DNA of 64,000 nt from an uncultured Bacilli bacterium (GCA_934162265.1 CAKPHZ010000001.1:3547-67546), one strand, 5' to 3'. Shown: positions 5,345 through 60,754, counted from the first letter of the stretch. The notes: generated by a model not told the origin, from the letters alone. A program made the numbers and translations.

Positions 5345-5860
5345 ATGAATAAAAAGAAAGTTATTATTTCGTGGTTAATGGTAATGATATGGATGGGTAC
5401 TATTTTTTATTTATCGAATATGAATACTGGTGAATCTAATGGTAAAAGTAAAAAAGTAATTGATAAAGTGATTACTACTACTATTGATACTACTAATCAG
5501 ACTGGTATTACAGATGAGCATCCTACTAATAGAGAAAAAGAAAAATTAGTAGATACGTTAAATAAACCTTTAAGAAAATGTGCTCATGCTAGTGTTTATT
5601 TTATATTAGCAATATTAATACTATATTCTTTATTAAATACTTTTAATCACTTAACTCATCAATATTATCTTGCAATTATAATCACGATAGTGTTATGTTT
5701 TATTTATTCTTTAAGTGATGAATATCATCAAACATTTGTTCCTGGTAGAACAGGACAATTTAGTGATTGCCTAATAGATACAGGAGGTTCTTGTATAGGA
5801 ACTCTTTTCTATACATTAGGTAATAAAGTATATAAAAAAAGAAGAAAAAGGAAAGGATAA
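5345..5860 (+). CDS. VanZ-like family membrane protein
   Basis: Carries the VanZ-family motif DEYHQTFVPGRTGQFSDCLIDTGGSCIG. The start at 5345 (MNKKKVII) follows an AGGTGG RBS, whereas the track start at 5318 would contain that RBS. Confidence 0.7.
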   Translation: MNKKKVIISWLMVMIWMGTIFYLSNMNTGESNGKSKKVIDKVITTTIDTTNQTGITDEHPTNREKEKLVDTLNKPLRKCAHASVYFILAILILYSLLNTFNHLTHQYYLAIIITIVLCFIYSLSDEYHQTFVPGRTGQFSDCLIDTGGSCIGTLFYTLGNKVYKKRRKRKG

Positions 5861-5864
5861 TTGA

Positions 5865-5969
5865 ATGAAATATTTACTAATATTTGGGCTACTAGTTTTC
5901 ATCTTCTTCATCTTATTATTCATCTATTGTGCCCTAGTAGTATCATCTAGAAGTAATAATAAACATTAA
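5865..5969 (+). CDS. Possible 34-aa hydrophobic small membrane peptide
   Basis: ATG preceded by a GGAAAGGA RBS. The product is MKYLLIFGLLVFIFFILLFIYCALVVSSRSNNKH, and the ORF is immediately followed by a strong terminator hairpin. It is too short for the ORF track. Confidence 0.25.
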   Translation: MKYLLIFGLLVFIFFILLFIYCALVVSSRSNNKH

Positions 5970-5970
5970 A

Positions 5971-6001
5971 CTATTAACAAGTATTTGTTAATAGTTTTTT
6001 A
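5971..6001 (+). terminator. Rho-independent terminator
   Basis: ctattaacaa / ttgttaatag forms a 10-bp perfect stem with a 5-nt loop, followed by a TTTTTT run. Confidence 0.7.
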
Positions 6002-27168: not shown

Positions 27169-29352
27169 TTATAATCTGCTTGGATCTATGTCAATTTCTA
27201 GTGATACTTTGCTATTGCCTTTATAGTGTGTATCTAAGTTTAATAAAGTACTTTTTAATCTATCATCCTTTTTATATTTTATAATACATTGTTGGTAATA
27301 AACATTATCTATTCTAAAGATATTTGCCATAGCAGGGCCTAATATGTAAGTGGTGGGACTTAGATTTTTTCGTAGATAATCCCCTACTTTTTTTGCTTCT
27401 TGGAAACTTAATTCATAATCTTTTGTAGAAATTCTAATTAAAATAATATAATAGTAAGGACTATAATTTAGTTGTTTTCTTATTTTCATTTCTTCTTGAT
27501 AAAAAGCTAAATAATTTTGCTCTTTGGCTAAGGTAATGCTATAATGATTGTTGTTATAAGTTTGAATGACAACTTCTCCTGATATCTCTCCTCTTCCTGC
27601 TCTTCCTGATACTTGGCAGAGTAATTGAAAAGTTCTTTCACTACTTCTAAAGTCTGGTATATTTAAACTGGCATCTGCGTTCATTACTCCTACTAAAGAT
27701 ACTTTAGGAAAATCTAATCCTTTAGCAATCATTTGGGTTCCTACTAAAATATCATATTTTTCTTCTCCAAAGTCTTTGATAATTTTTTGATGAGCACCTT
27801 TTTTGGAAGTTGTATCCATATCCATTCGAATGATTCTAGCCTCTTTAAAATCGTGATGTAACTCTTCTTCTAGTTTTTGAGTACCTATTCCAAAATCTTT
27901 CATATTATGGCTGTGACATTTTGGACATTCTTCTACTTTTGATGAGGCATAGCCACAATAGTGGCATCTTAACATATTACTTGTTTTATGATAGGTTAGG
28001 CTAATATCACAATTTGGACATTTTATTACTTCACCGCAATTTCCACAACTTGATACTGAGCTATATCCTCTTCTATTTAAAAGTAAAATAATTTGTTCTT
28101 TCTTTGCTAGTTTTTCTTTCATTTTTTGAAATAATAATTCAGAAAAAATAAAATGTCCTTTTTTTACTTCTTCTTTCATATTGGTAATATATACTTTTGG
28201 GAGTTGTCCATTTCCAGCCCTTTTGGTTAAGGTTAAGAGTTCATAGACTTTCTTCTGTGCTCGAGCCATACTTTCTAAGGAAGGAGTGGCACTTCCTAAT
28301 ACTATAGGAGCATGATGATACTGTCCTCTTAAAATTGCAACATCTCTGGCGTGATATCTTGGATGATTATCTTGTTTATAAGTAGAAGAATGTTCTTCAT
28401 CTATAATGATTATTCCGATATTTTTAAGGGGGGCAAATATTGCACTTCTTGCTCCAACAACAATATGTACTTCTCCATTTTTTATTTTTCGATATTCATC
28501 ATATTTTTCTCCCTCGCTTAATCCAGAATGAAGAATAGCGACATCTTGTCCAAATCTTAAAATAAATCTTTCTACAATTTGAGGAGTTAAACTAATTTCT
28601 GGTACGAGCATAATCGCGGTTTTTCCTTGTTCAATTACACCTTTTATTATATTCATATAAACTTCTGTTTTTCCTGCTCCTGTTACTCCATATAATAAAA
28701 ATATTTTTTCTTGATTTAATGAAGATAATACTTTTGATACGGCTTTTTGTTGTTCCTCATTTAAAATAACTTTTTTATCGGTTTTATCCGTTTCATATTG
28801 ATAGCGATAACTTTCTCTTGTTTCTAAATGACATATTCCTTTTTTTAGAATTGTTTTGATACTGCTATCTTGTCTTGTGATTAATAATTCTTTTTTTACT
28901 AAAAAGTTTTCTAGAACTTTTTTTTGTCCTTCATAGCGACATTTTTTTAAGTAATTGGATAAATCTTCTTTGCTCCAATCTAAGATAAGATAATGGTTCA
29001 TTTTTTTCTTAATTTCTGTCTTATTGCTTGCTTTTAATGCTTTGGGAAGCATAGCTTGATAAATGGAAATTCTTGAACATAATATTTTATTGGCAATAAT
29101 TTTTCCTAGCCATAACATTTCTTCATTTAAAATAGGTGTTTCATCTACTAATTCTTCTATTTCCTTTAATTCATAGTCTTCTTCTAATTGATTAGTAATT
29201 TCTATGACAAACCCCTCTAGTTTTTGATATCCAAAAGGGACTTTTACTCTGGATCCTATCTTTATTTTTGATATCATATTACTAGGAATTTGATAGGTAA
29301 ACATTTTATCTACTGCTTTTGCTGTAATTTCTACAATTACCTTTGCATACAT
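27169..29352 (-). CDS. priA: Primosomal protein N' (PriA helicase)
   Basis: Walker A motif GVTGAGKTEVY, a DEEH box and a Cys4 zinc-finger cluster (CGNCGEVIKCPNCD...CHYCG); 727 aa. Confidence 0.9.
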   Translation of the reverse strand: MYAKVIVEITAKAVDKMFTYQIPSNMISKIKIGSRVKVPFGYQKLEGFVIEITNQLEEDYELKEIEELVDETPILNEEMLWLGKIIANKILCSRISIYQAMLPKALKASNKTEIKKKMNHYLILDWSKEDLSNYLKKCRYEGQKKVLENFLVKKELLITRQDSSIKTILKKGICHLETRESYRYQYETDKTDKKVILNEEQQKAVSKVLSSLNQEKIFLLYGVTGAGKTEVYMNIIKGVIEQGKTAIMLVPEISLTPQIVERFILRFGQDVAILHSGLSEGEKYDEYRKIKNGEVHIVVGARSAIFAPLKNIGIIIIDEEHSSTYKQDNHPRYHARDVAILRGQYHHAPIVLGSATPSLESMARAQKKVYELLTLTKRAGNGQLPKVYITNMKEEVKKGHFIFSELLFQKMKEKLAKKEQIILLLNRRGYSSVSSCGNCGEVIKCPNCDISLTYHKTSNMLRCHYCGYASSKVEECPKCHSHNMKDFGIGTQKLEEELHHDFKEARIIRMDMDTTSKKGAHQKIIKDFGEEKYDILVGTQMIAKGLDFPKVSLVGVMNADASLNIPDFRSSERTFQLLCQVSGRAGRGEISGEVVIQTYNNNHYSITLAKEQNYLAFYQEEMKIRKQLNYSPYYYIILIRISTKDYELSFQEAKKVGDYLRKNLSPTTYILGPAMANIFRIDNVYYQQCIIKYKKDDRLKSTLLNLDTHYKGNSKVSLEIDIDPSRL

Positions 29353-29679
29353 CTTATCACCACACTTTTTGTTTTCTATGATATTTAATAATATTTTTTT
29401 ACTATTCTTAGACCGATACTATTTGTTCATCCATGATAAGCAAATTTATATGATAAATTCTTAGATAAATTCTAAAAATTCTTTTATATTATTATACCTC
29501 TATTTCTCTTTGCTTCTCAATAAGTTAACTAACTTTCTTTCTTTTTTTATTTATAACTATTAGTAAATTTATAGTCGTTTAGAGAATAAATTGCTACGGA
29601 AATGATTATAGATTAGTGTTTTAAAGAAGAAAAAGATAAAATAGCTAGTCGACTAATCTATTCATAACTTTCGGTCCTT

Positions 29680-29796
29680 TTAGCTCGCCTTCGAACTTCA
29701 ACACCTGGAATGCCGATGCGAACGGCTATAACGTCAATCCTTCTGGAATGCTTAATCATTGGGGGTGGACTTCGAATTCGATCGGCGTGCGCCCAG
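29680..29796 (+). repeat. DGR template repeat (TR), 117 bp
   Basis: GC-rich (about 52%) block in an otherwise ~27% GC intergenic region. Aligned without gaps to the reverse complement of 32111-32227, it shows 18 mismatches, and all 18 are adenines in this copy (18 of 26 TR adenines). All 91 non-A positions are identical. The 3' segment tcgatcggcgtgcgcccag is identical in both copies, like an initiation-of-mutagenic-homing (IMH) region. The TR is in frame with the VR and carries 8 AAY codons. Confidence 0.88.
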
Positions 29797-30084
29797 ATTC
29801 CTACTATAATTAGTAAATTACTAATACCACCGAGAATAATTGATCATGGTTGATTATGAGAAGAAGTAATAGCCTAGTTTTAGGCTATAATCTATATATA
29901 GATTGGAAACAAGATTAGTCAGTAAGGAAATAATCCTTAAGTATATAATATAGACGTAATAAAACGGTAGTTTTTGTTACTATTGCTATATTGAAGTTTT
30001 ATCTATTAAATGATAGATAGAACTTTTTCTTATTAAATTTTGTTCTATTCATTGAATAAAATTAATAGGAAAAGAAAGGAAAAA

Positions 30085-30495
30085 ATGACTTTAAAAGATG
30101 AATATCAAAAATTGAAACAAAAATATCCTAAAAAAATCATTCTTATTCAATCTGGAACCTTTTATGTTACTTTCTTTCAAGATGCTGAAATTCTTAATTA
30201 TCTTTTTTCTTATCAAATCCATGACGATAAAGTTGGCTTTCCTATTAAAATGAAAGATAAAATTTTATTTAATTTAAGAAATGAGAAGCTCAATTATTTA
30301 GTGCTAGATAAAGAAAAACGAGAGTTTTCTTTTGATGATAATGATATTTTCTCGTATGAGGAGATATTAAAAATTTCTTCTCAATATGCAAAACAATCTA
30401 GTGATACGCAAGAGCTGTTGGATAGAATAAAGTCTTTGATTGAGATTAATCCTAACTATTATGTTAAAATAAAGGAATTTATTGATGAACTCTAA
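30085..30495 (+). CDS. DGR accessory protein with MutS N-terminal mismatch-binding domain (MutS-I)-like fold (MSL-type)
   Basis: The segment TLKDEYQKLKQKYPKKIILIQSGTFYVTFFQDAE aligns with the MutS domain I consensus [35 protein letters not shown]. The mismatch-intercalating Phe is conserved (GTFY) but the Glu is replaced by Val. The start at 30085 has a GAAAGGA RBS. Confidence 0.6.
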   Translation: MTLKDEYQKLKQKYPKKIILIQSGTFYVTFFQDAEILNYLFSYQIHDDKVGFPIKMKDKILFNLRNEKLNYLVLDKEKREFSFDDNDIFSYEEILKISSQYAKQSSDTQELLDRIKSLIEINPNYYVKIKEFIDEL

Positions 30496-30823
30496 TTTTC
30501 AGTTATTACAAAAAACAGAGAAAACTATTCAATACATTCAAAAATTTTTACAAAATTATCCTAAAAAGGAATATATTTTAAAAGGAAATATAGAAAAAAA
30601 TACTTATTCGTTAATTGAATTGATTTTTTCGTATCAAATTAATCATACTGAACGTATTCGTCAAAAATACTTAAAGGATTTTTTAATTCAGTTATCTATG
30701 TTAAATTTTTATATGGAAATTAGTTTTAATAAAAAATATATTAGTACAAGGCAATATGAAGTGATTGGTAAATTTTTAATTGAAATTAGAAAAATTACTT
30801 ACGGAATTTTAAAAAGTGAATAA
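30485..30823 (+). CDS. avd: Accessory variability determinant (Avd)-like four-helix-bundle protein
   Basis: About 112-aa helical protein immediately upstream of and overlapping the RT start. Its size, position and YP-K/R pattern fit Avd (a 23S rRNA intervening-sequence-protein-like four-helix bundle). Confidence 0.6.
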   Translation: MNSNFQLLQKTEKTIQYIQKFLQNYPKKEYILKGNIEKNTYSLIELIFSYQINHTERIRQKYLKDFLIQLSMLNFYMEISFNKKYISTRQYEVIGKFLIEIRKITYGILKSE

Positions 30824-31939
30824 TCAATTCAATTACCAAACAATTCTAACGATTAAAAATTTACAAATTATTTATCATCAAATAAAATTAAATAGTAGAC
30901 ATAAAGAAAAATTTTTAAATTATGAATTATTTTTAACCTCAAATTTATTTACTATTTTTTTTATTTTAAAATCAAAAAAATATCATCACTCTTGCTATAA
31001 TATTTTCTTAATTGTTGATCCAAAATTTAGAATTATTATGAGTGAAAATATTAATGATAAAATTGTTAATCATTTTATTAGTCAATACTTGTTATTCCCA
31101 ACGTTAGAACCAAAAATGATTCCTATGAGTGTTGCTACTAGAAGAGGTAAAGGGACAGATTTAGGCATTCGTTATATAAAAAAATATATTCATTCATTAA
31201 AAGAAAAATATGATACGTTTTTTTTTTGAAATGTGATGTTCATAAATTTTTTTATTCTATTGATCATCAATGTTTAATTCATAAATTAGAAAAAATTTAT
31301 GAAAATAAAGATACAATGACCCTATTAACAGAAATTATTAATAGTACTAATCAGCCGTATATTAATCAAAAAATCAATTTAGAAATTGAAAAAATTAAAA
31401 AAAATATTTTAGCTTCTCACTCTTCTTTGAAAGAAAAAGAAAGAAAGATAAAAGAATTAAAACGATTACCACGATATGAATCAGGAAAAGGATTACCAAT
31501 AGGAAATATGAGTAGCCAAATATTAGCAACCTTTTATTTAAATGATATTGATCATTATATCAAAGAAAAATTACATATTAAGTATTATGTGCGCTACATG
31601 GATGATTTTATTTTATTTCACCCTAATAAAGAATATTTAAAGTTTTGCTTAAAAGAAATTGATGCTAAATTAAAAGAAATAAAATTACATTTAAATAATA
31701 AAACACAATTAGCAGACATACATCAAGGATTTAATTTTTTAGGATATCGCTTTTTATTAAAAGAAAAAAAATTAATTACAAAAATAAATAAAAAAACAAA
31801 AAGAAAAATATATCATCGTTGTAAAAATAAATCTCTTAAAGAAAAACAAAGTATATTAAAAAACTATAAGGGAGTATTTAAATATGCAGATGTTAATGGA
31901 TATATTTTTCATTTACAATTTCAAAAAAAGAAAAAATAA
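30816..31939 (+). CDS. DGR reverse transcriptase (reading frame interrupted by a -1 frame change at the T10 tract 31218-31227)
   Basis: RT motifs appear in order across two ORFs: motif 1 IVDPKFRII...DKIVNHFI and the SVATRRGKG region (30816-31229 frame), then motif 2 CDVHKFFYSIDHQ, motif 3 GLPIGNMSSQILATFYLNDID (the DGR-specific IGxxxSQ), YVRYMDDFILF (YxDD) and FNFLGYRF (31226-31939 frame). An eleventh T, or a -1 ribosomal slip on T TTT TTT next to TGA, fuses the two frames. Confidence 0.85.
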
Positions 31940-32033
31940 TTTTTCAATTATTTGGTATATGTAGTAGGAATATCAACCAAAAATTGCCCACAAAATGATG
32001 AGTCATTTTGTGGGTTTTCTTTCTTTTCGATGA

Positions 32034-34283
32034 TTATTTTGAAATAATATAAGGGTTTGCTGCCGTTCCATTTCCTTCGCTTATCAGAGAATCAGCATTC
32101 AGATTGATAACTGGGCGCACGCCGATCGAAGACGAAGGCCACCCCCAAGGAAAAAGCAGTCCAGAAGGATTGACGTAAGAGCCGAACGCAACGGCAGACC
32201 AGGTGAGGAAGCGCGAAGGCGAGCTAAGCCAATAGTAAGCTCCTGTATATAAATAATATTCTTTATTGTCATACCCTTGCTTTCCTCCGGCGTATGCTAC
32301 TTCATCTGCTGTTAATAATCCTACTGGATAGGTTAATTCTCCGTTACCTAATGTTGAAGTACTAGATACAGTAAATTGATCCACTTTTCTTGGACATTTA
32401 TAAGAAGGTGTTTTATTTGTTACATTTCTTTGATAAGAACCATAATAGGTAGTGCTATTTAAAGTAAAGCCATCTCCTGAAGCAATGCTTCTATCATTGC
32501 AAAATATATTATCAGTTAAATATTTTGAATATCCCTTATCCTGAATATTGGTTTTATACCAACTATCTATTTTTTGTTTAATAGCGCTATCATATTCATC
32601 TGTATAGGTGGATTCATAGCTTTTTGAAAGATAAGAATGATATGCTTTTACTTTTACTTGGCTTATATTTACGTAAGAAGCTATTTCTACTAATGTTGTA
32701 CAAGTTCCTGTTTTAGAGGTACTAAAACATGTGTATTTATAATTGCTACTATTACTTCCCCAAACACTTTCTAGTGTTCCACTTGTTATATTCCCCGATA
32801 ATGATAATTTTTTTGTTGAATCATTTGTCGTATAACTATCCGAAAAATAATAAGTATTATTGGCATTTATATTATTGTAATTTAAATTTGTTGCTGTTGT
32901 GTGTTGTAATGTTTTGGATAACCCATATTTATAACCTACCATCGCTGAATCATACGGGTCAGAATTAAAGGTTGAATTTCCGATGGTTACATTACCACCT
33001 GTATCTGATGTAGAAGTTCCAGAATATATCATTCTTATGCTCCCATCTCCGTTAATTCTAACAATTCTCCATATATATCCTGCAAATGATACATAATTAT
33101 TTAACACTCTACCTCTATAATAATAACTTTCTCCATAGTCATCATCTGCAACATATAAGGCACTACTAGATAAATTTACTATCTCTTTTGTTGAACTATA
33201 TTGATCTACTTTCGTTGCTTTATATGTTGTTGTCGTTCCTGATGTAGAAGTAGTCGCTGAGTAGATTACATACATTGTACTACAACTTCCAGTATCTGTT
33301 CTAACACAGGTGTAATACTTTTTATCACTTGTAGATAAATTATCTGTCATGTTTGTTCTAGTTGTATTAGAAATACTATATTGTCCTGTATTTGCATTGA
33401 ATGTATAATTTGTACCAAAATATATTTTATCTGTAGTACTTACTAAACTACTTCCTGTTAAATTAAAAGCATTTGTTTGTGTATATGTAATCATTGGAGA
33501 TGTTTCGTTAAAATTAGCTACTCTTGTTTTGATTTCTTCTTTTGCTTGTTCTACACTACTAGCATATTTGTCTGTTATTAATAAACAATCACTTAGTTTG
33601 GTGATATTATTATTTGTACAATAATCACTATCAAAATCACCAAATGTAGCTGTTGTTCCTGTTCCGTTGCTTGAATAAAATTCTACTAATCCTCCATATA
33701 CTCCTGTATCTGTTTTTATTTGATCTTTTCCATTTTCACTAATCCATAAAGCGATATAATATTCTTTTGTTTCATTTGGGGAAATTGAAAAGTTTTTTTC
33801 TAAATTAGATTTTTCCATACCATTTGTTTTATATTCACTTTTTCTAGTTGTTGCATTATCAAGTAATTCCCATTTTAAATTTTGATAAATGTTATTTGCT
33901 CCACTTGCAACAAGAGTGATGGAACCAGTTAACTTTAAGGTTGCTTTTCCGGTATTTTTAAGTGTTATTTTATAAACTTCACAGGAAACATTCTGATTAG
34001 AATCTACACAACTTCCAACCCCACCTGTTCCTTTTAAAGCATTTTTCAATGCATCATCCAACAGAGGAACTAACTTGGACGTCCCATTACTAGATGATGG
34101 AGTAACTTTATTTACTATTAAACTTACATTAGAAGTTGACATGTTTCCAGCAAATGTATTTGTATTTTTTCCTTCTGTATATAAATAAGCATATGTAGCA
34201 CTTGTCATTATTATAGTATAAATTATTATGCTAAAAGTGAATATTAAAATCTTTCTTTTCGATATTTTTTTTAAACTTCTCAT
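32034..34283 (-). CDS. DGR target (variable) protein: signal-anchored, Ser/Thr/Asn-rich surface protein with a C-terminal VR-encoded ligand-binding region (probable C-type-lectin/FGE-like fold)
   Basis: 749 aa. The N-terminus has a signal or transmembrane anchor (MRSLKKISKRKILIFTFSIIIYTIIMTSATYA), and the protein has many N-x-S/T sites. The C-terminus ...SSPSRFLTWSAVAFGSYVNPSGLLFPWGWPSSSIGVRPV is encoded by the VR, followed by 26 further residues. Confidence 0.8.
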   Translation of the reverse strand: MRSLKKISKRKILIFTFSIIIYTIIMTSATYAYLYTEGKNTNTFAGNMSTSNVSLIVNKVTPSSSNGTSKLVPLLDDALKNALKGTGGVGSCVDSNQNVSCEVYKITLKNTGKATLKLTGSITLVASGANNIYQNLKWELLDNATTRKSEYKTNGMEKSNLEKNFSISPNETKEYYIALWISENGKDQIKTDTGVYGGLVEFYSSNGTGTTATFGDFDSDYCTNNNITKLSDCLLITDKYASSVEQAKEEIKTRVANFNETSPMITYTQTNAFNLTGSSLVSTTDKIYFGTNYTFNANTGQYSISNTTRTNMTDNLSTSDKKYYTCVRTDTGSCSTMYVIYSATTSTSGTTTTYKATKVDQYSSTKEIVNLSSSALYVADDDYGESYYYRGRVLNNYVSFAGYIWRIVRINGDGSIRMIYSGTSTSDTGGNVTIGNSTFNSDPYDSAMVGYKYGLSKTLQHTTATNLNYNNINANNTYYFSDSYTTNDSTKKLSLSGNITSGTLESVWGSNSSNYKYTCFSTSKTGTCTTLVEIASYVNISQVKVKAYHSYLSKSYESTYTDEYDSAIKQKIDSWYKTNIQDKGYSKYLTDNIFCNDRSIASGDGFTLNSTTYYGSYQRNVTNKTPSYKCPRKVDQFTVSSTSTLGNGELTYPVGLLTADEVAYAGGKQGYDNKEYYLYTGAYYWLSSPSRFLTWSAVAFGSYVNPSGLLFPWGWPSSSIGVRPVINLNADSLISEGNGTAANPYIISK
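32111..32227 (-). repeat. DGR variable repeat (VR), 117 bp, at the 3' end of the target gene
   Basis: Reverse complement of the TR, with 18 substitutions located exclusively at TR adenine positions. It encodes residues SSPSRFLTWSAVAFGSYVNPSGLLFPWGWPSSSIGVRP. Relative to the TR there are 13 changed codons (for example N to R/L/S/F/Y, H to P, T to P). Confidence 0.88.
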
Positions 34284-34610
34284 CCTTTTACCTTCTTTTC
34301 TAAAGATGGGATTTCGAATAGTTACATCAATTTATATCACCATGTTCAATCAAATTCCTTACTACCATCTTACTATCTATTTTTATTCTACTATAAATTA
34401 GATAAAATGAAAAGATGTAACTCTAAATAACTTCAAAAATTCACTTCGGGCTATTGATCTCAAAAAGCACACATTTAAACCACCAGTAAACTCCTTATCA
34501 TTTAATTTACCAAACTACTCGAATGCAAATTTTTAGAAAAATTATTTGCTTTTTATTTTAGAATATTCATTGGCTGTTTAGAATTTTTCTAAATGGTCAC
34601 TACTACCAAA

Positions 34611-34638
34611 ACCAGTCTTATCAATTGATAAGACTGGT
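34611..34638. terminator. 28-bp perfect palindrome, a likely bidirectional terminator downstream of rpmF
   Basis: accagtcttatcaa / ttgataagactggt, flanked by T-runs on both strands. Confidence 0.55.
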
Positions 34639-34675
34639 TATTTTTTGATAATAAAAAAGCCCTTAAAGATAGGAC

Positions 34676-34849
34676 TTACTTTGAAACTACTTGTTCTCCC
34701 TTATAAAATCCGCATTTTGGACATACTCTGTGAGGACGAATCATTTCGCCACAATTTGAGCATTTTACTAATCCATTAGCTACTACTTTATAATGAGTTC
34801 TTCTCATATCTCTTCTAGTTTTACTTACTTTTCTAAATGGAACTGCCAT
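34676..34849 (-). CDS. rpmF: 50S ribosomal protein L32
   Basis: [21 protein letters not shown]... with a CxxC...CxxC zinc ribbon. The start is set at MAVPF; the track ORF begins at an upstream Met. Confidence 0.9.
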
Positions 34850-34853
34850 GTTC

Positions 34854-35354
34854 TCACTCCTTCCTTGAATCAAATATTTTACTTAACTCACTAAATGGAG
34901 AATTATTACCTTCTTTTAGTTCTTCTTCTGTAACAAGACGCCATCCATCTCCCTTTAATGTTAAATTTTCTGTCTTTTCAGATTTCACTTTTAAAGGAAT
35001 TTCCACTAATATATTTTGCCATAAAAAGTCTTGAATATCAAGTCTATTTCGAACAATTTCTAAATTATTTTCATCATTTTTTCCTACTCCACAAAACTTT
35101 TCTGAAACATTACTTTCAAATGGATAATCAACATCTTCTAGGGTAATATCATCTGGTAAAACCATAATTCCTGATATTTTCCCTTCTATTTCATAATTTC
35201 CATCACATAATTTTGTAATTGTTCCCTCAAATTTTGTGTTTTTTAGCGAGCGAATTGTTGTTTTTGAAAATAATTCTTTATCTAATTCAAATGAATCATT
35301 TATAGTGATTTCTTCTTCTATATTGGTAATTAGTTTTGTTAAATCAATATTCAT
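34854..35354 (-). CDS. yceD: YceD/DUF177 family protein (large ribosomal subunit accumulation protein)
   Basis: 166 aa, immediately upstream of rpmF as in the conserved yceD-rpmF pair. Acidic protein with a CxxC motif. Confidence 0.7.
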
Positions 35355-35386
35355 CTTTCTCTCCTGTAAAGAAAAAAAGGATTTCC

Positions 35387-35944
35387 TTATTTTCTTGATA
35401 CGTATTTACCATCTTTGGTAGATACAATTATTTCTTCTCCTTCATCAATAAACAAAGGTACACGTACTAATAATCCAGTTTCAATAATCGCATCTTTTGT
35501 TGCATTAGTTGCTGTATTTCCTTTGATTGCTGGTTCAGTAGATGTAATTTTGTAGTCAATTTTTTCTGGTAGCTCTAATCCTAACATTTCGTTTTCATAG
35601 AAAGTAATATAAACATTTAAACCTTCTTTTAAGAATTTTACTTGATCCTTAATTTGACTTTCATCTAGTTCAATTTGTTCATATGTTTCCATATTCATGA
35701 AACTATAGCTACTACCTGTTGCATACAAATATTGCATTTGTTGCTTATTGATGTGAGCTTTTGGAACTGTTATTCCAGCATTAAATGTCTGCATAGCAAT
35801 TGCACCAGTTCTCAAATTTTTTAATTTGGCTTTAACAATTGCTGCTCCTTTACCAGGTTTTACATGATCAGACTCTAATACTTGATAGATATTTCCATCA
35901 TAACTAATGGTTACCCCATTCTTAAAATCATTTACGTTAATCAT
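35387..35944 (-). CDS. efp: Elongation factor P
   Basis: N-terminal segment NDFKNGVTISYDGNIYQVLESDHVKPGKGAAIVKAKLKNLRTG; 185 aa. Confidence 0.9.
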   Translation of the reverse strand: MINVNDFKNGVTISYDGNIYQVLESDHVKPGKGAAIVKAKLKNLRTGAIAMQTFNAGITVPKAHINKQQMQYLYATGSSYSFMNMETYEQIELDESQIKDQVKFLKEGLNVYITFYENEMLGLELPEKIDYKITSTEPAIKGNTATNATKDAIIETGLLVRVPLFIDEGEEIIVSTKDGKYVSRK

Positions 35945-55979: not shown

Positions 55980-56154
55980 CTTACCACCTACTTTAAGTAA
56001 AGTATATAATAAAAAGATATTCTTTTCAATGGAAAGGTTACTATTCACAGCTGAATAATAAAAAATATACACAGATTATGAGAAATTAAGTAAAAATAGC
56101 TCATAGTCTTTTTATAATGCAAAATATTTGATACAATAAAAAAAAGAAGGATAC

Positions 56155-56847
56155 GTGATGAAAATGGCAGAAATAAGTTTATCAAAATTACAAAAAAGAG
56201 TGACAAAATTAGAAAAAGATAATGCCGTGTTAAGAGATTTGTTAGAAGAAAGAAAACAAAAGCAATATAATGCAGAAAAACAATTAGAGTATTATAAAAA
56301 AAATCTAGAAAAAATAGTAAATACTGCTGTAAAAAAAGTAACTGAAGAACTAATGAAAGAAGTAAATAAATTAAAAGAAGAAAACGAACATTTAAAGAGA
56401 ATATTAAATCATGATAGTAGTAATAGTGGAATACCAACAAGCAGGACAAAAATTGGAGAAGCAAAAAGAGTTCCTAACTCTAGAAAAAAGAGTGAGCTGA
56501 AGAAAGGTGGACAACCAGGACATAAAAAACATAAATTAGAAAAGTTTGCAGATGATGAAATAACAGATACATATACATACGAAATAAAGAAACCAAAATG
56601 CAAAGAATGTGGAGGAAAATTAGAATTAATTGGAAAAAGATGTAAAGATGAATTTGATATCGAAATAAGATTAGTCAAGAGAAGAAATGAATTTTGTGAA
56701 TATAAATGTAGTTGCTGTGATAAAGTGATAAAAGTACCAATACCAGATAGATTAAAAGAGGAAAATCAATATGGAAGTAATGCTCAAGCATTAGCAATAT
56801 CACTAGTAAATGAAGGATATGTTTCATTTAGAAGAACAAGAGATTAA
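56155..56847 (+). CDS. IS66-family transposase, N-terminal part (leucine zipper plus zinc finger)
   Basis: Heptad-Leu coiled coil followed by the zinc-finger motif KCKECGGKL...CSCCDKV. Confidence 0.75.
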   Translation: MMKMAEISLSKLQKRVTKLEKDNAVLRDLLEERKQKQYNAEKQLEYYKKNLEKIVNTAVKKVTEELMKEVNKLKEENEHLKRILNHDSSNSGIPTSRTKIGEAKRVPNSRKKSELKKGGQPGHKKHKLEKFADDEITDTYTYEIKKPKCKECGGKLELIGKRCKDEFDIEIRLVKRRNEFCEYKCSCCDKVIKVPIPDRLKEENQYGSNAQALAISLVNEGYVSFRRTRD

Positions 56848-56870
56848 TAAGTGGTTTTACTGGTGGAGAA

Positions 56871-57722
56871 ATGGTAATGAGTGAAGGCTTCATATCAAAG
56901 TTACAAAAAAGATGTTACGACAAACTAGAAAATTTTGATAATGAAATTCATAAGAAAATACTAAGTCAAAGTATTTTGCATTGGGATGATACCGCTATAA
57001 GTATAAATGGAAAACAATCATGCTTAAGATTTTATGGAAATGAGAAAATAAAATATTACAAGGCACACGAACAAAAGAATAAAGCTGGAATTGATGAAGA
57101 TGGTATATTAAAGTTTTTATCAAAAGATACAGTTGTGATGCATGATCATAATTTAGTTAATTATAATGAGGATTATGATTTCACAAATGTAGAGTGTTGT
57201 GTTCATCTAATTAGAGATTTGAAAGAACTAAATGATTGTTTTCCAAGAGAATGGATTAATAAACTTATATCATTACTAGTAAATACTAATAATTTGAGAA
57301 AAGAATATATTAACAAAAATATATTACAATTCGATTATGAAGTATCAGACAATGTAATAAGAGAATATGATAAAATAATCGAAGAAGCTCAAAAAGTAAA
57401 TTCTAATGATTATAATGAGTATTACAGTAAAGATGAAAGTAGACTAATAAAAAGACTAATTAGATTTAAGGAAAATTACTTATTATGGGTTCTTAGATTT
57501 GATATTCCATTTTCTAATAATCTCAGTGAGAGAAGTTTAAGAAGTAGCAAAACGAAAATGAAGGTATCTGGACAGTTTTCAAATATTAAAAATGCAGAAT
57601 ATCTTGCTAGAATAAAATCGTATATTGAGACTTGTAAAAGTAATGATATAAATCCTCACGAAGCATTGATTAAACTTATAGAAGACAATCCATATACTTT
57701 AAGAGATATGAAAATAAACTAA
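56871..57722 (+). CDS. IS66-family transposase, C-terminal catalytic part
   Basis: CCVHLIRDLKEL matches the IS66 CWAHARRKF motif. It is in a different reading frame from the N-terminal part, in both IS copies. Confidence 0.75.
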   Translation: MVMSEGFISKLQKRCYDKLENFDNEIHKKILSQSILHWDDTAISINGKQSCLRFYGNEKIKYYKAHEQKNKAGIDEDGILKFLSKDTVVMHDHNLVNYNEDYDFTNVECCVHLIRDLKELNDCFPREWINKLISLLVNTNNLRKEYINKNILQFDYEVSDNVIREYDKIIEEAQKVNSNDYNEYYSKDESRLIKRLIRFKENYLLWVLRFDIPFSNNLSERSLRSSKTKMKVSGQFSNIKNAEYLARIKSYIETCKSNDINPHEALIKLIEDNPYTLRDMKIN

Positions 57723-57774
57723 GAAATCTTAGTTTATTTTGCGTGCAAGTTATTATTCAGCTGTGAATAGTAAC

Positions 57775-58917: not shown

Positions 58918-59117
58918 GTTATACCTCCTAAAGTGATTATTAGTATAACATATTTCTTATTAAGTTACTAGGTTAAATTAAGAATTTGGATCTCTGTCAG
59001 TTACTATTCACAGCTGAATAATAAAAAATATACACAGATTATGAGAAATTAAGTAAAAATAGCTCATAGTCTTTTTATAATGCAAAATATTTGATACAAT
59101 AAAAAAAAGAAGGATAC

Positions 59118-59810
59118 GTGATGAAAATGGCAGAAATAAGTTTATCAAAATTACAAAAAAGAGTGACAAAATTAGAAAAAGATAATGCCGTGTTAAGAGA
59201 TTTGTTAGAAGAAAGAAAACAAAAGCAATATAATGCAGAAAAACAATTAGAGTATTATAAAAAAAATCTAGAAAAAATAGTAAATACTGCTGTAAAAAAA
59301 GTAACTGAAGAACTAATGAAAGAAGTAAATAAATTAAAAGAAGAAAACGAACATTTAAAGAGAATATTAAATCATGATAGTAGTAATAGTGGAATACCAA
59401 CAAGCAGGACAAAAATTGGAGAAGCAAAAAGAGTTCCTAACTCTAGAAAAAAGAGTGAGCTGAAGAAAGGTGGACAACCAGGACATAAAAAACATAAATT
59501 AGAAAAGTTTGCAGATGATGAAATAACAGATACATATACATACGAAATAAAGAAACCAAAATGCAAAGAATGTGGAGGAAAATTAGAATTAATTGGAAAA
59601 AGATGTAAAGATGAATTTGATATCGAAATAAGATTAGTCAAGAGAAGAAATGAATTTTGTGAATATAAATGTAGTTGCTGTGATAAAGTGATAAAAGTAC
59701 CAATACCAGATAGATTAAAAGAGGAAAATCAATATGGAAGTAATGCTCAAGCATTAGCAATATCACTAGTAAATGAAGGATATGTTTCATTTAGAAGAAC
59801 AAGAGATTAA
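59118..59810 (+). CDS. IS66-family transposase, N-terminal part (copy 2)
   Basis: Identical to 56155-56847. Confidence 0.75.
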   Translation: MMKMAEISLSKLQKRVTKLEKDNAVLRDLLEERKQKQYNAEKQLEYYKKNLEKIVNTAVKKVTEELMKEVNKLKEENEHLKRILNHDSSNSGIPTSRTKIGEAKRVPNSRKKSELKKGGQPGHKKHKLEKFADDEITDTYTYEIKKPKCKECGGKLELIGKRCKDEFDIEIRLVKRRNEFCEYKCSCCDKVIKVPIPDRLKEENQYGSNAQALAISLVNEGYVSFRRTRD

Positions 59811-59833
59811 TAAGTGGTTTTACTGGTGGAGAA

Positions 59834-60685
59834 ATGGTAATGAGTGAAGGCTTCATATCAAAGTTACAAAAAAGATGTTACGACAAACTAGAAAATTTTG
59901 ATAATGAAATTCATAAGAAAATACTAAGTCAAAGTATTTTGCATTGGGATGATACCGCTATAAGTATAAATGGAAAACAATCATGCTTAAGATTTTATGG
60001 AAATGAGAAAATAAAATATTACAAGGCACACGAACAAAAGAATAAAGCTGGAATTGATGAAGATGGTATATTAAAGTTTTTATCAAAAGATACAGTTGTG
60101 ATGCATGATCATAATTTAGTTAATTATAATGAGGATTATGATTTCACAAATGTAGAGTGTTGTGTTCATCTAATTAGAGATTTGAAAGAACTAAATGATT
60201 GTTTTCCAAGAGAATGGATTAATAAACTTATATCATTACTAGTAAATACTAATAATTTGAGAAAAGAATATATTAACAAAAATATATTACAATTCGATTA
60301 TGAAGTATCAGACAATGTAATAAGAGAATATGATAAAATAATCGAAGAAGCTCAAAAAGTAAATTCTAATGATTATAATGAGTATTACAGTAAAGATGAA
60401 AGTAGACTAATAAAAAGACTAATTAGATTTAAGGAAAATTACTTATTATGGGTTCTTAGATTTGATATTCCATTTTCTAATAATCTCAGTGAGAGAAGTT
60501 TAAGAAGTAGCAAAACGAAAATGAAGGTATCTGGACAGTTTTCAAATATTAAAAATGCAGAATATCTTGCTAGAATAAAATCGTATATTGAGACTTGTAA
60601 AAGTAATGATATAAATCCTCACGAAGCATTGATTAAACTTATAGAAGACAATCCATATACTTTAAGAGATATGAAAATAAACTAA
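59834..60685 (+). CDS. IS66-family transposase, C-terminal part (copy 2)
   Basis: Identical to 56871-57722. Confidence 0.75.
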   Translation: MVMSEGFISKLQKRCYDKLENFDNEIHKKILSQSILHWDDTAISINGKQSCLRFYGNEKIKYYKAHEQKNKAGIDEDGILKFLSKDTVVMHDHNLVNYNEDYDFTNVECCVHLIRDLKELNDCFPREWINKLISLLVNTNNLRKEYINKNILQFDYEVSDNVIREYDKIIEEAQKVNSNDYNEYYSKDESRLIKRLIRFKENYLLWVLRFDIPFSNNLSERSLRSSKTKMKVSGQFSNIKNAEYLARIKSYIETCKSNDINPHEALIKLIEDNPYTLRDMKIN

Positions 60686-60754
60686 GAAATCTTAGTTTAT
60701 TTTGCGTGCAAGTTATTATTCAGCTGTGAATAGTAACATGGAAAGAGTATCTTT

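What the first reader, a model, noticed from the sequence alone, without database searches (positions are those of the whole stretch)
29680..34283. Complete diversity-generating retroelement (DGR) targeting a chromosomal surface protein
A 117-bp GC-rich repeat at 29680-29796 (TR) and its reverse-complement partner at 32111-32227 (VR, inside the 3' end of a 749-aa secreted Ser/Thr-rich protein gene) align with no gaps. They differ at 18 positions, and every one is an adenine in the TR (18 of 26 TR adenines); all 91 non-A positions are identical. That pattern is the signature of DGR adenine-specific mutagenic retrohoming. Between them lie a small MutS-I-like gene, an Avd-like gene and an RT with the DGR-typical IGxxxSQ / YxDD / FLGY motifs. 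The element is chromosomal (priA upstream, rpmF downstream) with no phage genes nearby, so this bacterium appears to hypermutate about 13 codons of its own surface ligand-binding protein.
Basis: partly seen in the sequence, partly recalled or inferred. Interest (0 to 1): 0.92.

Follow-up and report, generated by a model that had tools for sequence, protein, structure and literature searches.

The report
Active DGR with a frameshifted RT
An uncultured human-gut bacterium carries a real diversity-generating retroelement that is still rewriting about 13 codons of a surface lectin-like protein, even though its reverse transcriptase gene is split in two by a run of ten T's in every assembly found, so the enzyme must be made by slippage at that run.

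Summary
The repeat is exactly as described. TR 29680-29796 and VR 32227-32111 align over 117 nt without gaps. All 18 mismatches sit at TR adenines (chance about 2e-15), and a 19th lies at 29797.

The genes between them are a MutS-domain-I protein (MSL), an Avd and a DGR-type RT. The variable region ends a 749-aa protein whose C-terminus models as a C-type-lectin fold. The flanks are housekeeping genes.

A T10 run (31218-31227) splits it into 137-aa and 237-aa frames, and T11 would be in frame.

In 31 conspecific metagenome loci and a 15-billion-protein collection I found only out-of-frame alleles (T10, T9, T12). Yet T10 clones with zero differences over about 5 kb carry VRs that differ at up to 16 TR-adenine positions. 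These VRs also follow lineage-specific non-A changes in their TR. Both RT halves are under purifying selection.

A T9 clade with broken MSL and Avd has a frozen, drifting VR.

Best reading: this is an active chromosomal MSL-type DGR whose RT comes from a leaky frameshift, by transcriptional slippage or a -1 ribosomal shift. The DGR itself is ordinary. An active DGR with a recoded RT appears to be undescribed.

The parts
29680..29797 (+). Template repeat (TR). It is 118 nt, about 52% G+C, and holds 27 adenines, 25 of them at codon positions 1 or 2 of the VR frame. The 3' end is a GC-rich block, GATCGGCGTGCGCCCAG, identical in TR and VR.
   Evidence: Lineage-specific non-A TR variants are copied into the cognate VRs.
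29798..30085 (+). Non-coding spacer between the TR and the first accessory gene. It is the candidate for the structured 3' part of the DGR RNA. This is an inferred role.
   Evidence: No ORF. TR plus spacer fold at -108.9 kcal/mol, z = -3.8 against shuffles. No Rfam family matched. Function was not tested.
30086..30495 (+). MSL accessory gene (136 aa, MutS domain I-like).
   Evidence: Pfam MutS_I at 32.2 bits against a cut-off of 20.6. MSL is a known DGR accessory class (PMC5758913; bioRxiv 10.1101/2024.11.15.621889). It is frameshifted in the T9 clade.
30485..30823 (+). avd accessory gene (112 aa).
   Evidence: Pfam bAvd at 46.4 bits against a cut-off of 40. NCBIfam DivGenRetAVD at 49 bits, below its cut-off of 80. 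It carries 67-nt or 66-nt deletions in the T9 clade.
30816..31229 (+). RT, N-terminal frame (137 aa, the fingers part), ending in the TGA that overlaps the T run.
   Evidence: It aligns to residues 12-168 of the 328-aa RT chain 8ub7_A, continuously across the junction once one T is added.
31218..31227 (+). T10 run, the frameshift site. Frame 0 reads TTT TTT TTT TGA. The C-terminal frame is -1, and T11 (or T8) would be in frame. Relatives read TTT TAT GTT TTG here.
   Evidence: T10 occurs in the window and all 21 other loci of the T10 lineages. T9 occurs in 9 loci, and T12 is inferred from one protein on 2 contigs. No in-frame allele was found. It is the only homopolymer of 10 nt or more inside coding sequence in the 64-kb window.
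31226..31939 (+). RT, C-terminal frame (237 aa). It begins KCDVHKFFYSIDH, which holds the motif-A catalytic Asp, and then carries LPIGNMSSQ, YMDD, FNFLGY and the thumb.
   Evidence: (RVT_1).
31986..32015 (.). Bidirectional terminator-like hairpin between the converging RT and target genes.
   Evidence: 13 pairs on the + strand and 12 on the - strand, each followed by a T-rich tail.
32110..32227 (-). Variable repeat (VR), codons 686-725 of the target. 19 positions differ from the TR, all at TR adenines.
   Evidence: 13 distinct VR sequences among the first 27 sequences compared (window plus 26 loci), with 25 of 27 TR-A columns variable. Further variants appear in the protein cluster.
32034..34283 (-). 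Target gene (749 aa). It has an N-terminal hydrophobic signal or anchor and is 25.6% Ser+Thr. Its C-terminal domain has a C-type-lectin fold and carries the VR.

Best explanation
This is a chromosomal, MSL-type diversity-generating retroelement in an uncultured, low-G+C gut Bacilli species. The TR is transcribed with its spacer and copied by the RT with random misincorporation opposite adenines. The cDNA then replaces the VR at the 3' end of a convergent gene for a surface protein with a C-type-lectin-fold tip, recoding about 13 codons.

The element is active today, yet its RT gene carries a fixed -1 frameshift at a T10 run. Full-length RT (374 aa, ...YDTFFFLKCDV...) is therefore most likely made from a minority of expression events. 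Either RNA polymerase slips on the run and adds one U, or ribosomes shift -1 on U UUU UUU with the UGA stop in the A site. The result would be a low, throttled dose of RT.

Shown here: the TR/VR anatomy, the gene content, the lectin-like fold, ongoing A-specific diversification in T10 genomes, purifying selection on both RT halves, and decay once the accessory genes are broken.

Inferred: which process restores the frame, and whether the frameshift is selected as a throttle or merely tolerated.
For: Anatomy.

Activity in the T10 background:
- Nine of nine T10 locus pairs with 0 differences over about 5.1-5.7 kb of cassette, target and neighbours have different VRs (median 14 differences). They belong to two independent clones, L081/L085/L089 and L097-L100.
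- 13 of 15 T10 pairs with 6 or fewer central differences differ in VR, against 0 of 15 pairs in the main T9 sublineage.
- In T10 lineages every VR-versus-own-TR mismatch inside the repeat is at a TR adenine (6-21 per VR), with a single exception (L089, T to G).
- VRs carry the lineage-specific non-A TR alleles, which shows TR-to-VR transfer after those TR changes arose.

The frameshift is real and fixed:
- T10 is present in the window and all 21 other T10-lineage loci, from different samples and assemblers.
- The split proteins are recorded on dozens of contigs.
- No protein above 69% identity is longer than 238 aa.
- Eight hypothetical in-frame T11/T8 proteins are absent from a 15-billion-sequence collection.

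The RT is still constrained:
- Segregating changes in the two RT halves are 7 non-synonymous to 8 synonymous, pN/pS about 0.19, binomial p = 0.002 against neutrality.
- There are no indels in MSL, avd or RT across the 21 T10 sequences (window plus 20 loci).

Contrast with the T9 clade: it has accumulated 4-5 indel lesions, its VR is frozen within sublineages, and it shows 3-4 non-A TR/VR mismatches.

Feasibility:
- Runs of 9 or more A or T give frequent transcriptional slippage in bacteria.
- Poly(A) frameshifts in AT-rich endosymbionts are corrected in 12-50% of transcripts (PMC5009743).
- An interrupted tssM gene is rescued the same way in Citrobacter (PMC4256274).
- The in-frame product matches the length and motif of intact relatives (F-Y-V-L-KCDI) and of chain 8ub7_A.
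Against: No RNA or protein data exist, so the in-frame product has never been seen. No stimulatory structure follows the run (z = -0.9), and I read no Shine-Dalgarno-like sequence upstream. If the shift is ribosomal it therefore lacks the usual enhancers.

The DGR cassette has 5-10 times lower synonymous diversity than its flanks. T10 may therefore be younger than the species, and the selection test rests on only 15 substitutions.

Metagenome consensus sequences cannot show minority T11 cells. A second, more distant RT elsewhere in the genome cannot be excluded from a 64-kb window.

Some T10 pairs separated by a few SNPs share a VR (L083/L084, L088/L090). Turnover is therefore not fast.
Confidence: 0.6

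Rival explanations
1. DNA-level phase variation. The T run is a contingency tract. Rare cells slip to T11 (ON), make RT and diversify the VR, then slip back or are outcompeted, so assemblies show the OFF consensus.
For: Tract length is polymorphic in the species: T10, T9 and T12. The run was created from TTT TAT GTT TTG by two substitutions, as expected for an evolved switch. It is the only homopolymer of 10 nt or more in coding sequence in the window.
Against: No in-frame consensus allele was found in 31 loci, in dozens of contigs at the protein level, or by exact look-up. A new VR found in a T10 background needs two rare slips in the same lineage. T9 occurs only together with other lesions, so it looks like decay, not switching. 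Transcriptional slippage at a T10 run would occur anyway.
Confidence: 0.2
2. The RT here is a dead pseudogene. The VR diversity is produced by another RT acting in trans, from a second DGR or a prophage DGR in the same genome.
For: The ORF is broken. Only 64 kb of the genome is visible. Related lineages show that this cassette does decay.
Against: Both RT halves show purifying selection, and the 21 T10 sequences have no further lesions. The template used is this locus's own TR, lineage SNPs included. No other RT above 69% identity exists in the protein collection, and the species' representative MAG gave only this locus in the RT scan. The clade with broken MSL and Avd stops diversifying, so this cassette's own proteins matter.
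Confidence: 0.08
3. Two-piece RT. The 137-aa and 237-aa products are made separately, by termination-reinitiation at the overlapping TTGA, and assemble into an active enzyme.
For: The TTG start of the second frame overlaps the TGA stop of the first (TTGA), a typical coupling arrangement. Both halves are conserved.
Against: The break falls three residues before the motif-A catalytic Asp (LKCD). In intact relatives and in chain 8ub7_A the sequence runs through this point without a gap. I read no ribosome-binding site upstream of the TTG. No split DGR RT came up in the literature searches.
Confidence: 0.07
4. Artefact. The true tract is T11 and short-read assemblies systematically under-call it.
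For: Homopolymers are error-prone in sequencing.
Against: The same T10 was recovered by different assemblers and studies (metaSPAdes NODE contigs, MEGAHIT k141 contigs, Logan) in every T10-lineage locus. T9 is inherited strictly within one clade that shares other lesions. That is heritable genotype behaviour, not random error.
Confidence: 0.03

Closest known systems
MSL-containing DGRs: 'Architecture D' of Wu et al. 2018 (PMC5758913), which includes the Legionella DGR, and the Bacteroides Msl+Avd DGRs (bioRxiv 10.1101/2024.11.15.621889)
   Different: Gene order here is TR-spacer-MSL-avd-RT, with the target convergent on the opposite strand. The relatives in which I could find a TR/VR pair have the VR upstream of the TR on the same strand. 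The RT reading frame is interrupted by a T10 run. The host is an uncultured low-G+C Bacilli lineage.
Bordetella phage BPP-1 DGR (the prototype)
   Same: The mechanism signature is shared: adenine-specific differences, AAC/AAT codons, the VR at the 3' end of the target, and a GC-rich identical 3' block. An Avd is present. The RT's best solved relative is the 328-aa RT chain 8ub7_A (E 6e-32). From memory this is bRT, but I could not confirm that.
   Different: This element is not on a phage. The best phage or IMG/VR RT matches are 32% identical or less. It has an extra MSL gene. I found no significant hairpin downstream of the VR. The TR lies upstream of the accessory genes. The RT is frameshifted.
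Recoded genes rescued by homopolymer slippage: poly(A) frameshifts in Buchnera and Blochmannia, Citrobacter tssM, IS-element transposases, and retroviral gag-pol -1 frameshifting on U UUU UUA
   Same: An out-of-frame gene sits at a run of 9 or more identical bases, and the downstream frame remains under selection. The functional product is expected from a minority of transcripts or ribosomes (PMC5009743; PMC4256274). As in retroviruses, the enzyme whose dose is limited is a reverse transcriptase.
   Different: No such case came up for a DGR in the literature searches. No stimulatory RNA structure was found. Expression was not measured.

Membership tests
Diversity-generating retroelement (DGR) | TR/VR repeat pair whose differences are confined to TR adenines | tested here: met
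   18 of 18 mismatches (19 of 19 with position 29797) are at A, p = 2.4e-15. The same holds for all T10-lineage VRs against their own TR, apart from one T to G in L089.
Diversity-generating retroelement (DGR) | RT of the DGR clade, with the (I/L)GxxxSQ motif plus YxDD | tested here: met
   LPIGNMSSQ, YMDD and FNFLGY are read in the sequence. RVT_1 is matched. The best solved relative is the 328-aa RT chain 8ub7_A at E 6e-32, about 22 orders of magnitude better than the next hit, Cas6-RT-Cas1. No dedicated DGR-RT HMM was available in the libraries.
Diversity-generating retroelement (DGR) | RT encoded as an intact open reading frame | tested here: not met
   It is split into 137-aa and 237-aa frames at T10, 31218-31227, in the window and all conspecifics. 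Relatives at 69% identity or less are mostly intact, at 357-403 aa.
Diversity-generating retroelement (DGR) | Accessory protein Avd | tested here: met
   Pfam bAvd at 46.4 bits, above its cut-off of 40. NCBIfam DivGenRetAVD at 49 bits, below its cut-off of 80.
Diversity-generating retroelement (DGR) | VR at the C-terminus of a target protein with a C-type-lectin (or Ig) fold | tested here: met
   [not shown]
Diversity-generating retroelement (DGR) | Ongoing TR-to-VR information transfer (mutagenic retrohoming) in natural populations | tested here: met
   13 VR DNA variants were found, and 25 of 27 TR-A columns vary. Non-A TR SNPs are copied into VRs. Clones identical over about 5 kb differ in VR.
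Diversity-generating retroelement (DGR) | IMH / IMH* elements and a hairpin downstream of the VR, as in BPP-1 | tested here: inconclusive
   A GC-rich 17-nt block ends both repeats, and the sequences diverge immediately after it. No significant hairpin lies downstream of the VR (z = +0.7). These elements are poorly conserved among DGRs.
MSL-type DGR (Architecture D, Wu et al. 2018) | Small MutS-domain-I-like accessory gene together with avd and without HRDC | tested here: met
   The 136-aa ORF matches MutS_I at 32.2 bits against a cut-off of 20.6. Its size is within the published 112-283 aa range.
Programmed or compensatory frameshift (transcriptional slippage or -1 ribosomal frameshift) | Slippery homopolymer of 9 nt or more (or an X XXY YYZ heptamer) at the frame junction | tested here: met
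   T10 reads TTT TTT TTT TGA, and the downstream frame is -1.
Programmed or compensatory frameshift (transcriptional slippage or -1 ribosomal frameshift) | Frameshift conserved while both frames stay under purifying selection | tested here: met
   T10 is present in all 21 T10-lineage sequences tested. pN/pS is about 0.19 (p = 0.002), with no further indels. The counts are small.
Programmed or compensatory frameshift (transcriptional slippage or -1 ribosomal frameshift) | Downstream stimulatory RNA structure or upstream Shine-Dalgarno-like element | tested here: not met
   The downstream 103 nt fold no better than shuffles. I read no SD-like motif upstream. Neither is needed for transcriptional slippage.
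Programmed or compensatory frameshift (transcriptional slippage or -1 ribosomal frameshift) | In-frame mRNA or fused protein detected | not testable with these tools
   No transcriptome or proteome data were available.
Phase-variable contingency locus | Both ON (in-frame) and OFF tract lengths present in the population | tested here: not met
   Only T10, T9 and T12 were seen, all out of frame. T11/T8 proteins are absent from the collection. Minority variants within samples could not be examined.

The most novel reading that the evidence does not exclude
The T10 frameshift is not damage but a selected dose control. The species built a slippery run inside the RT, by changing two codons, and keeps it one base out of frame. 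Only a small, noisy fraction of transcripts or ribosomes then yields RT. This would hold mutagenic retrohoming at a low rate that suits a chromosomal, self-targeting DGR. It would be a bacterial counterpart of retroviral gag-pol frameshifting, and the first recoding-controlled DGR.
Probability: 0.35. Interest if true: 0.75.

Novelty: new variant of a known kind. Interest (0 to 1): 0.6.

Why it matters
How DGR activity is kept in check in cellular hosts is largely open. Published Bacteroides work shows elements ranging from silent to constitutive, and shows that host MutS suppresses retrohoming.

This locus offers a simple, testable control point, a slippery T run inside the RT. It also comes with a natural experiment: T10 clones that keep diversifying, against a T9 clade with broken accessory genes whose VR is frozen and drifting.

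There is a practical consequence too. DGR surveys that demand an intact RT ORF, or that discard 'pseudogenes', would miss or mislabel active elements like this one in AT-rich gut bacteria.

Finally, the data document recent host-protein diversification in an uncultured, reduced-genome gut lineage, seen mainly in Hadza samples.

Tried and rejected
- **Alternative genetic code.** Reading UGA as Trp does not rescue the frame. The read-through frame hits TAA about 20 codons later (read), and table 11 gives long ORFs across the window.
- **Ribosomal frameshift stimulator.** No significant structure was found downstream of the run.
- **BPP-1-like hairpin after the VR.** Not significant.
- **Rfam.** Only two tRNAs matched in the window, and nothing at the TR or spacer.
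- **Promoter scan.** No more sites than in shuffles, so I make no promoter claim.
- **JGI metagenome scan** for the tract with 7-14 variable bases: no match. This species is not in that collection.
- **IMG/VR and INPHARED phages.** Only RTs at 32% identity or less, so there is no evidence the cassette is phage-borne.
- **Pfam and NCBIfam on the target itself.** No hit.
- **PDB sequence search with MSL.** Only marginal MutS hits, E 0.25.
- **Identity of 8ub7.** A literature search for the PDB code found nothing. Calling it bRT rests on my memory of the 328-aa Bordetella phage enzyme.
- **Frameshift at the same site in other species.** Not found. Most relatives are intact. L038 is split at a different A run, and L035 is truncated by an IS200/IS605-like insertion.

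Full report
**1. The observation**

On independent re-alignment they match over 117 nt without gaps, 29680-29796 on the + strand against 32227-32111 on the - strand. The repeat finder reports the same pair as its longest inverted repeat.

There are 18 mismatches, and every one is an adenine in the upstream copy. That copy holds 26 adenines, and all 91 other positions are identical. The chance that 18 random mismatches all land on the 26 A's is 2.4e-15.

The next base (29797 A against 32110 T) is a 19th difference of the same kind. In the reading frame of the 749-aa gene on the - strand this gives 13 altered codons. 25 of the 27 template adenines sit at codon positions 1 or 2, mostly in AAC/AAT codons. 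The repeat is about 52% G+C in a window that averages about 26%.

**2. The genes**

- ORF 30086-30495 matches Pfam MutS_I above its cut-off.
- ORF 30485-30823 matches bAvd above its cut-off. It scores below the stricter NCBIfam Avd cut-off.
- The RT matches RVT_1 and carries LPIGNMSSQ, YMDD and FNFLGY.
- The RT's best solved relative by far is a 328-aa RT chain, 8ub7_A (E 6e-32). The next hit, Cas6-RT-Cas1, is at 4.5e-10. From memory 8ub7 is the Bordetella phage enzyme, but I could not confirm the entry's identity.

MSL is a published accessory class of DGRs (PMC5758913; also the Bacteroides DGRs).

The flanks are housekeeping genes: RNase HII, priA, rpmF, yceD, efp, a PBP2-type transpeptidase and FtsX. 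No close relative of the RT occurs in IMG/VR or in GenBank phages, where the best matches are 32% identical or less.

Related loci come from MAGs labelled uncultured Bacilli, Tenericutes or Acholeplasmataceae from human and animal guts. The conspecific ones come largely from Hadza stool metagenomes.

**3. The target**

The protein has an N-terminal hydrophobic segment and is 25.6% Ser+Thr. It has no Pfam or NCBIfam match of its own.

Twenty of the 55 homologues match DUF6273. The scaffold residues in the VR (W, G, PSG, WGW, GVRPV) are constant in all variants, while the AAY-templated codons vary.

**4.

The RT is two ORFs, 30816-31229 and 31226-31939, in different frames and joined at a run of ten T's at 31218-31227. 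Frame 0 reads GAT ACG TTT TTT TTT TGA. The second frame is -1.

One extra T gives a 374-aa protein reading ...YDTFFFLKCDVHKFFYSIDH.... This aligns without a break to 8ub7_A across the junction and to intact relatives.

Relatives at 40-67% identity read TTT TAT GTT TTG (F-Y-V-L) at this spot. The run therefore arose in this species by two substitutions and then lost a base. It is the only homopolymer of 10 nt or more inside coding sequence in the 64-kb window, and the only one of 9 nt or more that interrupts an ORF.

**5. Is the frameshift real?**

- The species' GTDB representative MAG (L002, about 96% identical over 29.4-37.0 kb and 92% in priA) has the same T10.
- In a 5.8-billion-cluster protein database, the only entry above 69% identity to the repaired RT is a cluster of split products. 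Intact relatives there are 357-403 aa.
- The 15 listed members of that cluster (of 37) are 137-aa + 237-aa pairs (T10, on dozens of contigs), 139-aa + 238-aa pairs (T9) and a 140-aa form (T12).
- I fetched 31 conspecific loci from different samples and assemblers. 22 have T10 and 9 have T9. None is in frame.
- Exact look-up of eight hypothetical in-frame (T11 or T8) proteins, built on the four main haplotypes, found none among about 15 billion sequences.
- T9 is inherited within one clade together with other shared lesions. Tract length therefore behaves as a heritable genotype, not as sequencing noise.

**6. Is the element active despite this?**

Across the first 27 sequences compared (the window plus 26 loci) there are 13 distinct VRs. 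25 of the 27 template-A columns vary. Bases found opposite template A are A 142, T 67, C 56 and G 49.

In T10 lineages, every mismatch between a VR and its own TR inside the repeat is at a template adenine, with a single exception (L089, T to G). Where a lineage's TR carries a non-A change, its VRs carry it too. The G to T at core position 45 appears in all five distinct VRs of that lineage. The A to C at 29769 appears in the VRs of L086, L088 and L090. Information has therefore flowed from this TR to this VR since those changes arose.

The most telling comparison uses near-identical loci. Nine of nine T10 pairs with zero differences across about 5.1-5.7 kb of cassette, target and neighbours have different VRs (median 14 differences). 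They form two independent clones: L081/L085/L089, and L097/L098/L099/L100 (with L102 three SNPs away).

Both RT halves carry few non-synonymous changes: 7 non-synonymous to 8 synonymous, pN/pS about 0.19, p = 0.002. No T10 sequence has an indel in MSL, avd or RT.

**7. The natural control**

The T9 clade shares T9 and a +T frameshift in MSL at about 30301. Its two sublineages then independently lost 67 nt or 66 nt of avd, and each damaged the RT 3' end in its own way (a 12-nt deletion, or a 1-nt deletion that truncates the thumb).

In the main sublineage, all six loci share one VR, and that VR's protein is recorded on 11 contigs. This holds even though the loci differ by up to 6 sites in the central region and by up to 7.8 SNPs per kb overall. 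For pairs with 6 or fewer central differences, 13 of 15 T10 pairs differ in VR against 0 of 15 T9 pairs (Fisher p = 1.8e-6; the pairs are not independent).

T9-clade VRs show 3-4 mismatches to their TR at non-A positions. One of these is a failure to copy the TR's A to C change, which the T10 lineages sharing that TR allele did copy. The two sublineages' VRs differ at 7 sites, 4 of them non-A, which is ordinary drift.

So a dead cassette quickly gathers lesions and its VR freezes, whereas the T10 cassettes do neither.

**8. Mechanism**

The DGR cycle itself follows established knowledge of the family: a TR transcript, A-mutagenic cDNA synthesis by RT with Avd, then replacement of the VR. The data here show its outcome, not its steps.

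For the RT, the T10 allele must yield full-length enzyme. I rank the routes as follows:

- **Transcriptional slippage adding one U.** Runs of 9 or more A or T slip frequently in bacteria, and poly(A) frameshifts in AT-rich endosymbionts are corrected in 12-50% of transcripts (PMC5009743). An interrupted tssM is rescued this way (PMC4256274).
- **A -1 ribosomal shift on U UUU UUU with UGA in the A site.** This is the 'slippery run, shifty stop' idea, cited from memory. No downstream structure supports it.
- **Rare T11 revertant cells (phase variation).** This is less parsimonious, because no in-frame consensus is ever seen.
- **A two-piece enzyme made through the TTGA start/stop overlap.** This is unlikely, because the break lies three residues before the motif-A aspartate.
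- **A trans-acting RT.** This cannot be excluded from 64 kb. It is disfavoured by the constraint on this RT, by the use of this locus's TR, by the absence of any other close RT, and by loss of activity when this cassette's own accessory genes break.

Whether the frameshift is selected as a throttle or merely tolerated is open. Four points fit selection without proving it:

- Two substitutions built the run.
- The in-frame allele, one slip away, is never observed.
- The T10 cassette has 5-10 times lower synonymous diversity than its flanks, consistent with a recent sweep.
- A T9 allele is seen only in decayed cassettes.

**9. Comparison with known systems, and novelty**

As a DGR this is a new member of a known kind. 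It is an MSL+Avd element (Architecture D) with a lectin-fold target.

Its layout is less usual: TR-spacer-MSL-avd-RT with a convergent target. In the relatives where a TR/VR pair could be found, the VR is upstream of the TR on the same strand.

It fails one nominal membership feature, an intact RT ORF, while meeting the functional ones.

Three full-text searches combining DGR terms with frameshift, slippage, phase variation, homopolymer or recoding found no report of a DGR RT expressed through a frameshift. Two key DGR papers do not mention one either. I therefore rate it a new variant of a known kind.

Interest is moderate to high. The DGR alone is routine. An active element with a recoded RT, plus a built-in natural knock-out lineage, makes the open question of how DGR activity is dosed directly testable.

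**10. Limits**

All evidence for activity is population-genomic, from metagenome consensus contigs. The samples may include re-assemblies of the same material. The selection test rests on 15 substitutions. No expression data exist, and only 64 kb of the genome was visible.

Noticed in passing
window 29377-29389 versus L002 3880-4567 and L097-L101 about 1447-2067: A thymidine kinase gene (203 aa, PF00265) of about 690 bp sits between priA and the TR in the L002/L097-L101 lineage. It is absent from the window and from the other lineages. This is an indel right at the edge of the DGR cassette.
   Followed up: partly
window 29400-32000 versus flanks 27169-29352 and 32034-35944: The DGR cassette (MSL, avd, RT) has 11-17 segregating sites per kb. 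priA and the target have about 110 per kb, and yceD and efp about 46-48 per kb. Synonymous diversity in the cassette is 5-10 times lower than in priA, the target and efp, which suggests a recent sweep or recombinational spread of the T10 cassette within the species.
   Followed up: partly
window 31762-31779 (an A8 run and its neighbourhood in the RT thumb): This is a second indel-prone spot. The T9 sublineages carry a 12-nt in-frame deletion (LKEKKLITKINKK becomes LKKKKINKK) or a 1-nt deletion giving truncated 182- or 187-aa products (RFLLKGKN*). One truncated form (P0134) starts like a T10 allele.
   Followed up: partly
window 56037-57774 and 59000-60737: Two 100% identical 1,738-bp copies of an IS66-family element. 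Each has a 230-aa ORF and a 283-aa DDE_Tnp_IS66 ORF. They lie about 22 kb from the DGR.
   Followed up: partly
L038 about 1690-1725; L035 about 5400-6000: Other species' RTs of the same clade are also damaged. L038 is split at an A6 run and would be in frame with A7. In L035 the RT N-terminus is replaced by an IS200/IS605-like transposase. L038 hints that homopolymer frameshifts in DGR RTs may recur in these AT-rich genomes.
   Followed up: no
L087, L089, L090 (target 5' region and upstream): In some T10 strains the target gene is called as 594, 784 or 742 aa. In L087 and L090 an HTH_3 gene, not rpmF, lies next to it. This is structural variation at the target's N-terminal end.
   Followed up: no
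window 29798-30085: The 288-nt non-coding spacer after the TR folds into a string of hairpins. TR plus spacer give z = -3.8 against shuffles. No Rfam family matches. It may be the structured part of the DGR RNA that the RT and Avd recognise.
   Followed up: partly
[not shown]
   Followed up: no
L003-L033 (relatives): In the 18 relatives (of 35 scanned) where a TR/VR pair was detectable, the VR lies upstream of the TR on the same strand. The convergent target arrangement in this species therefore looks like a rearrangement.
   Followed up: partly
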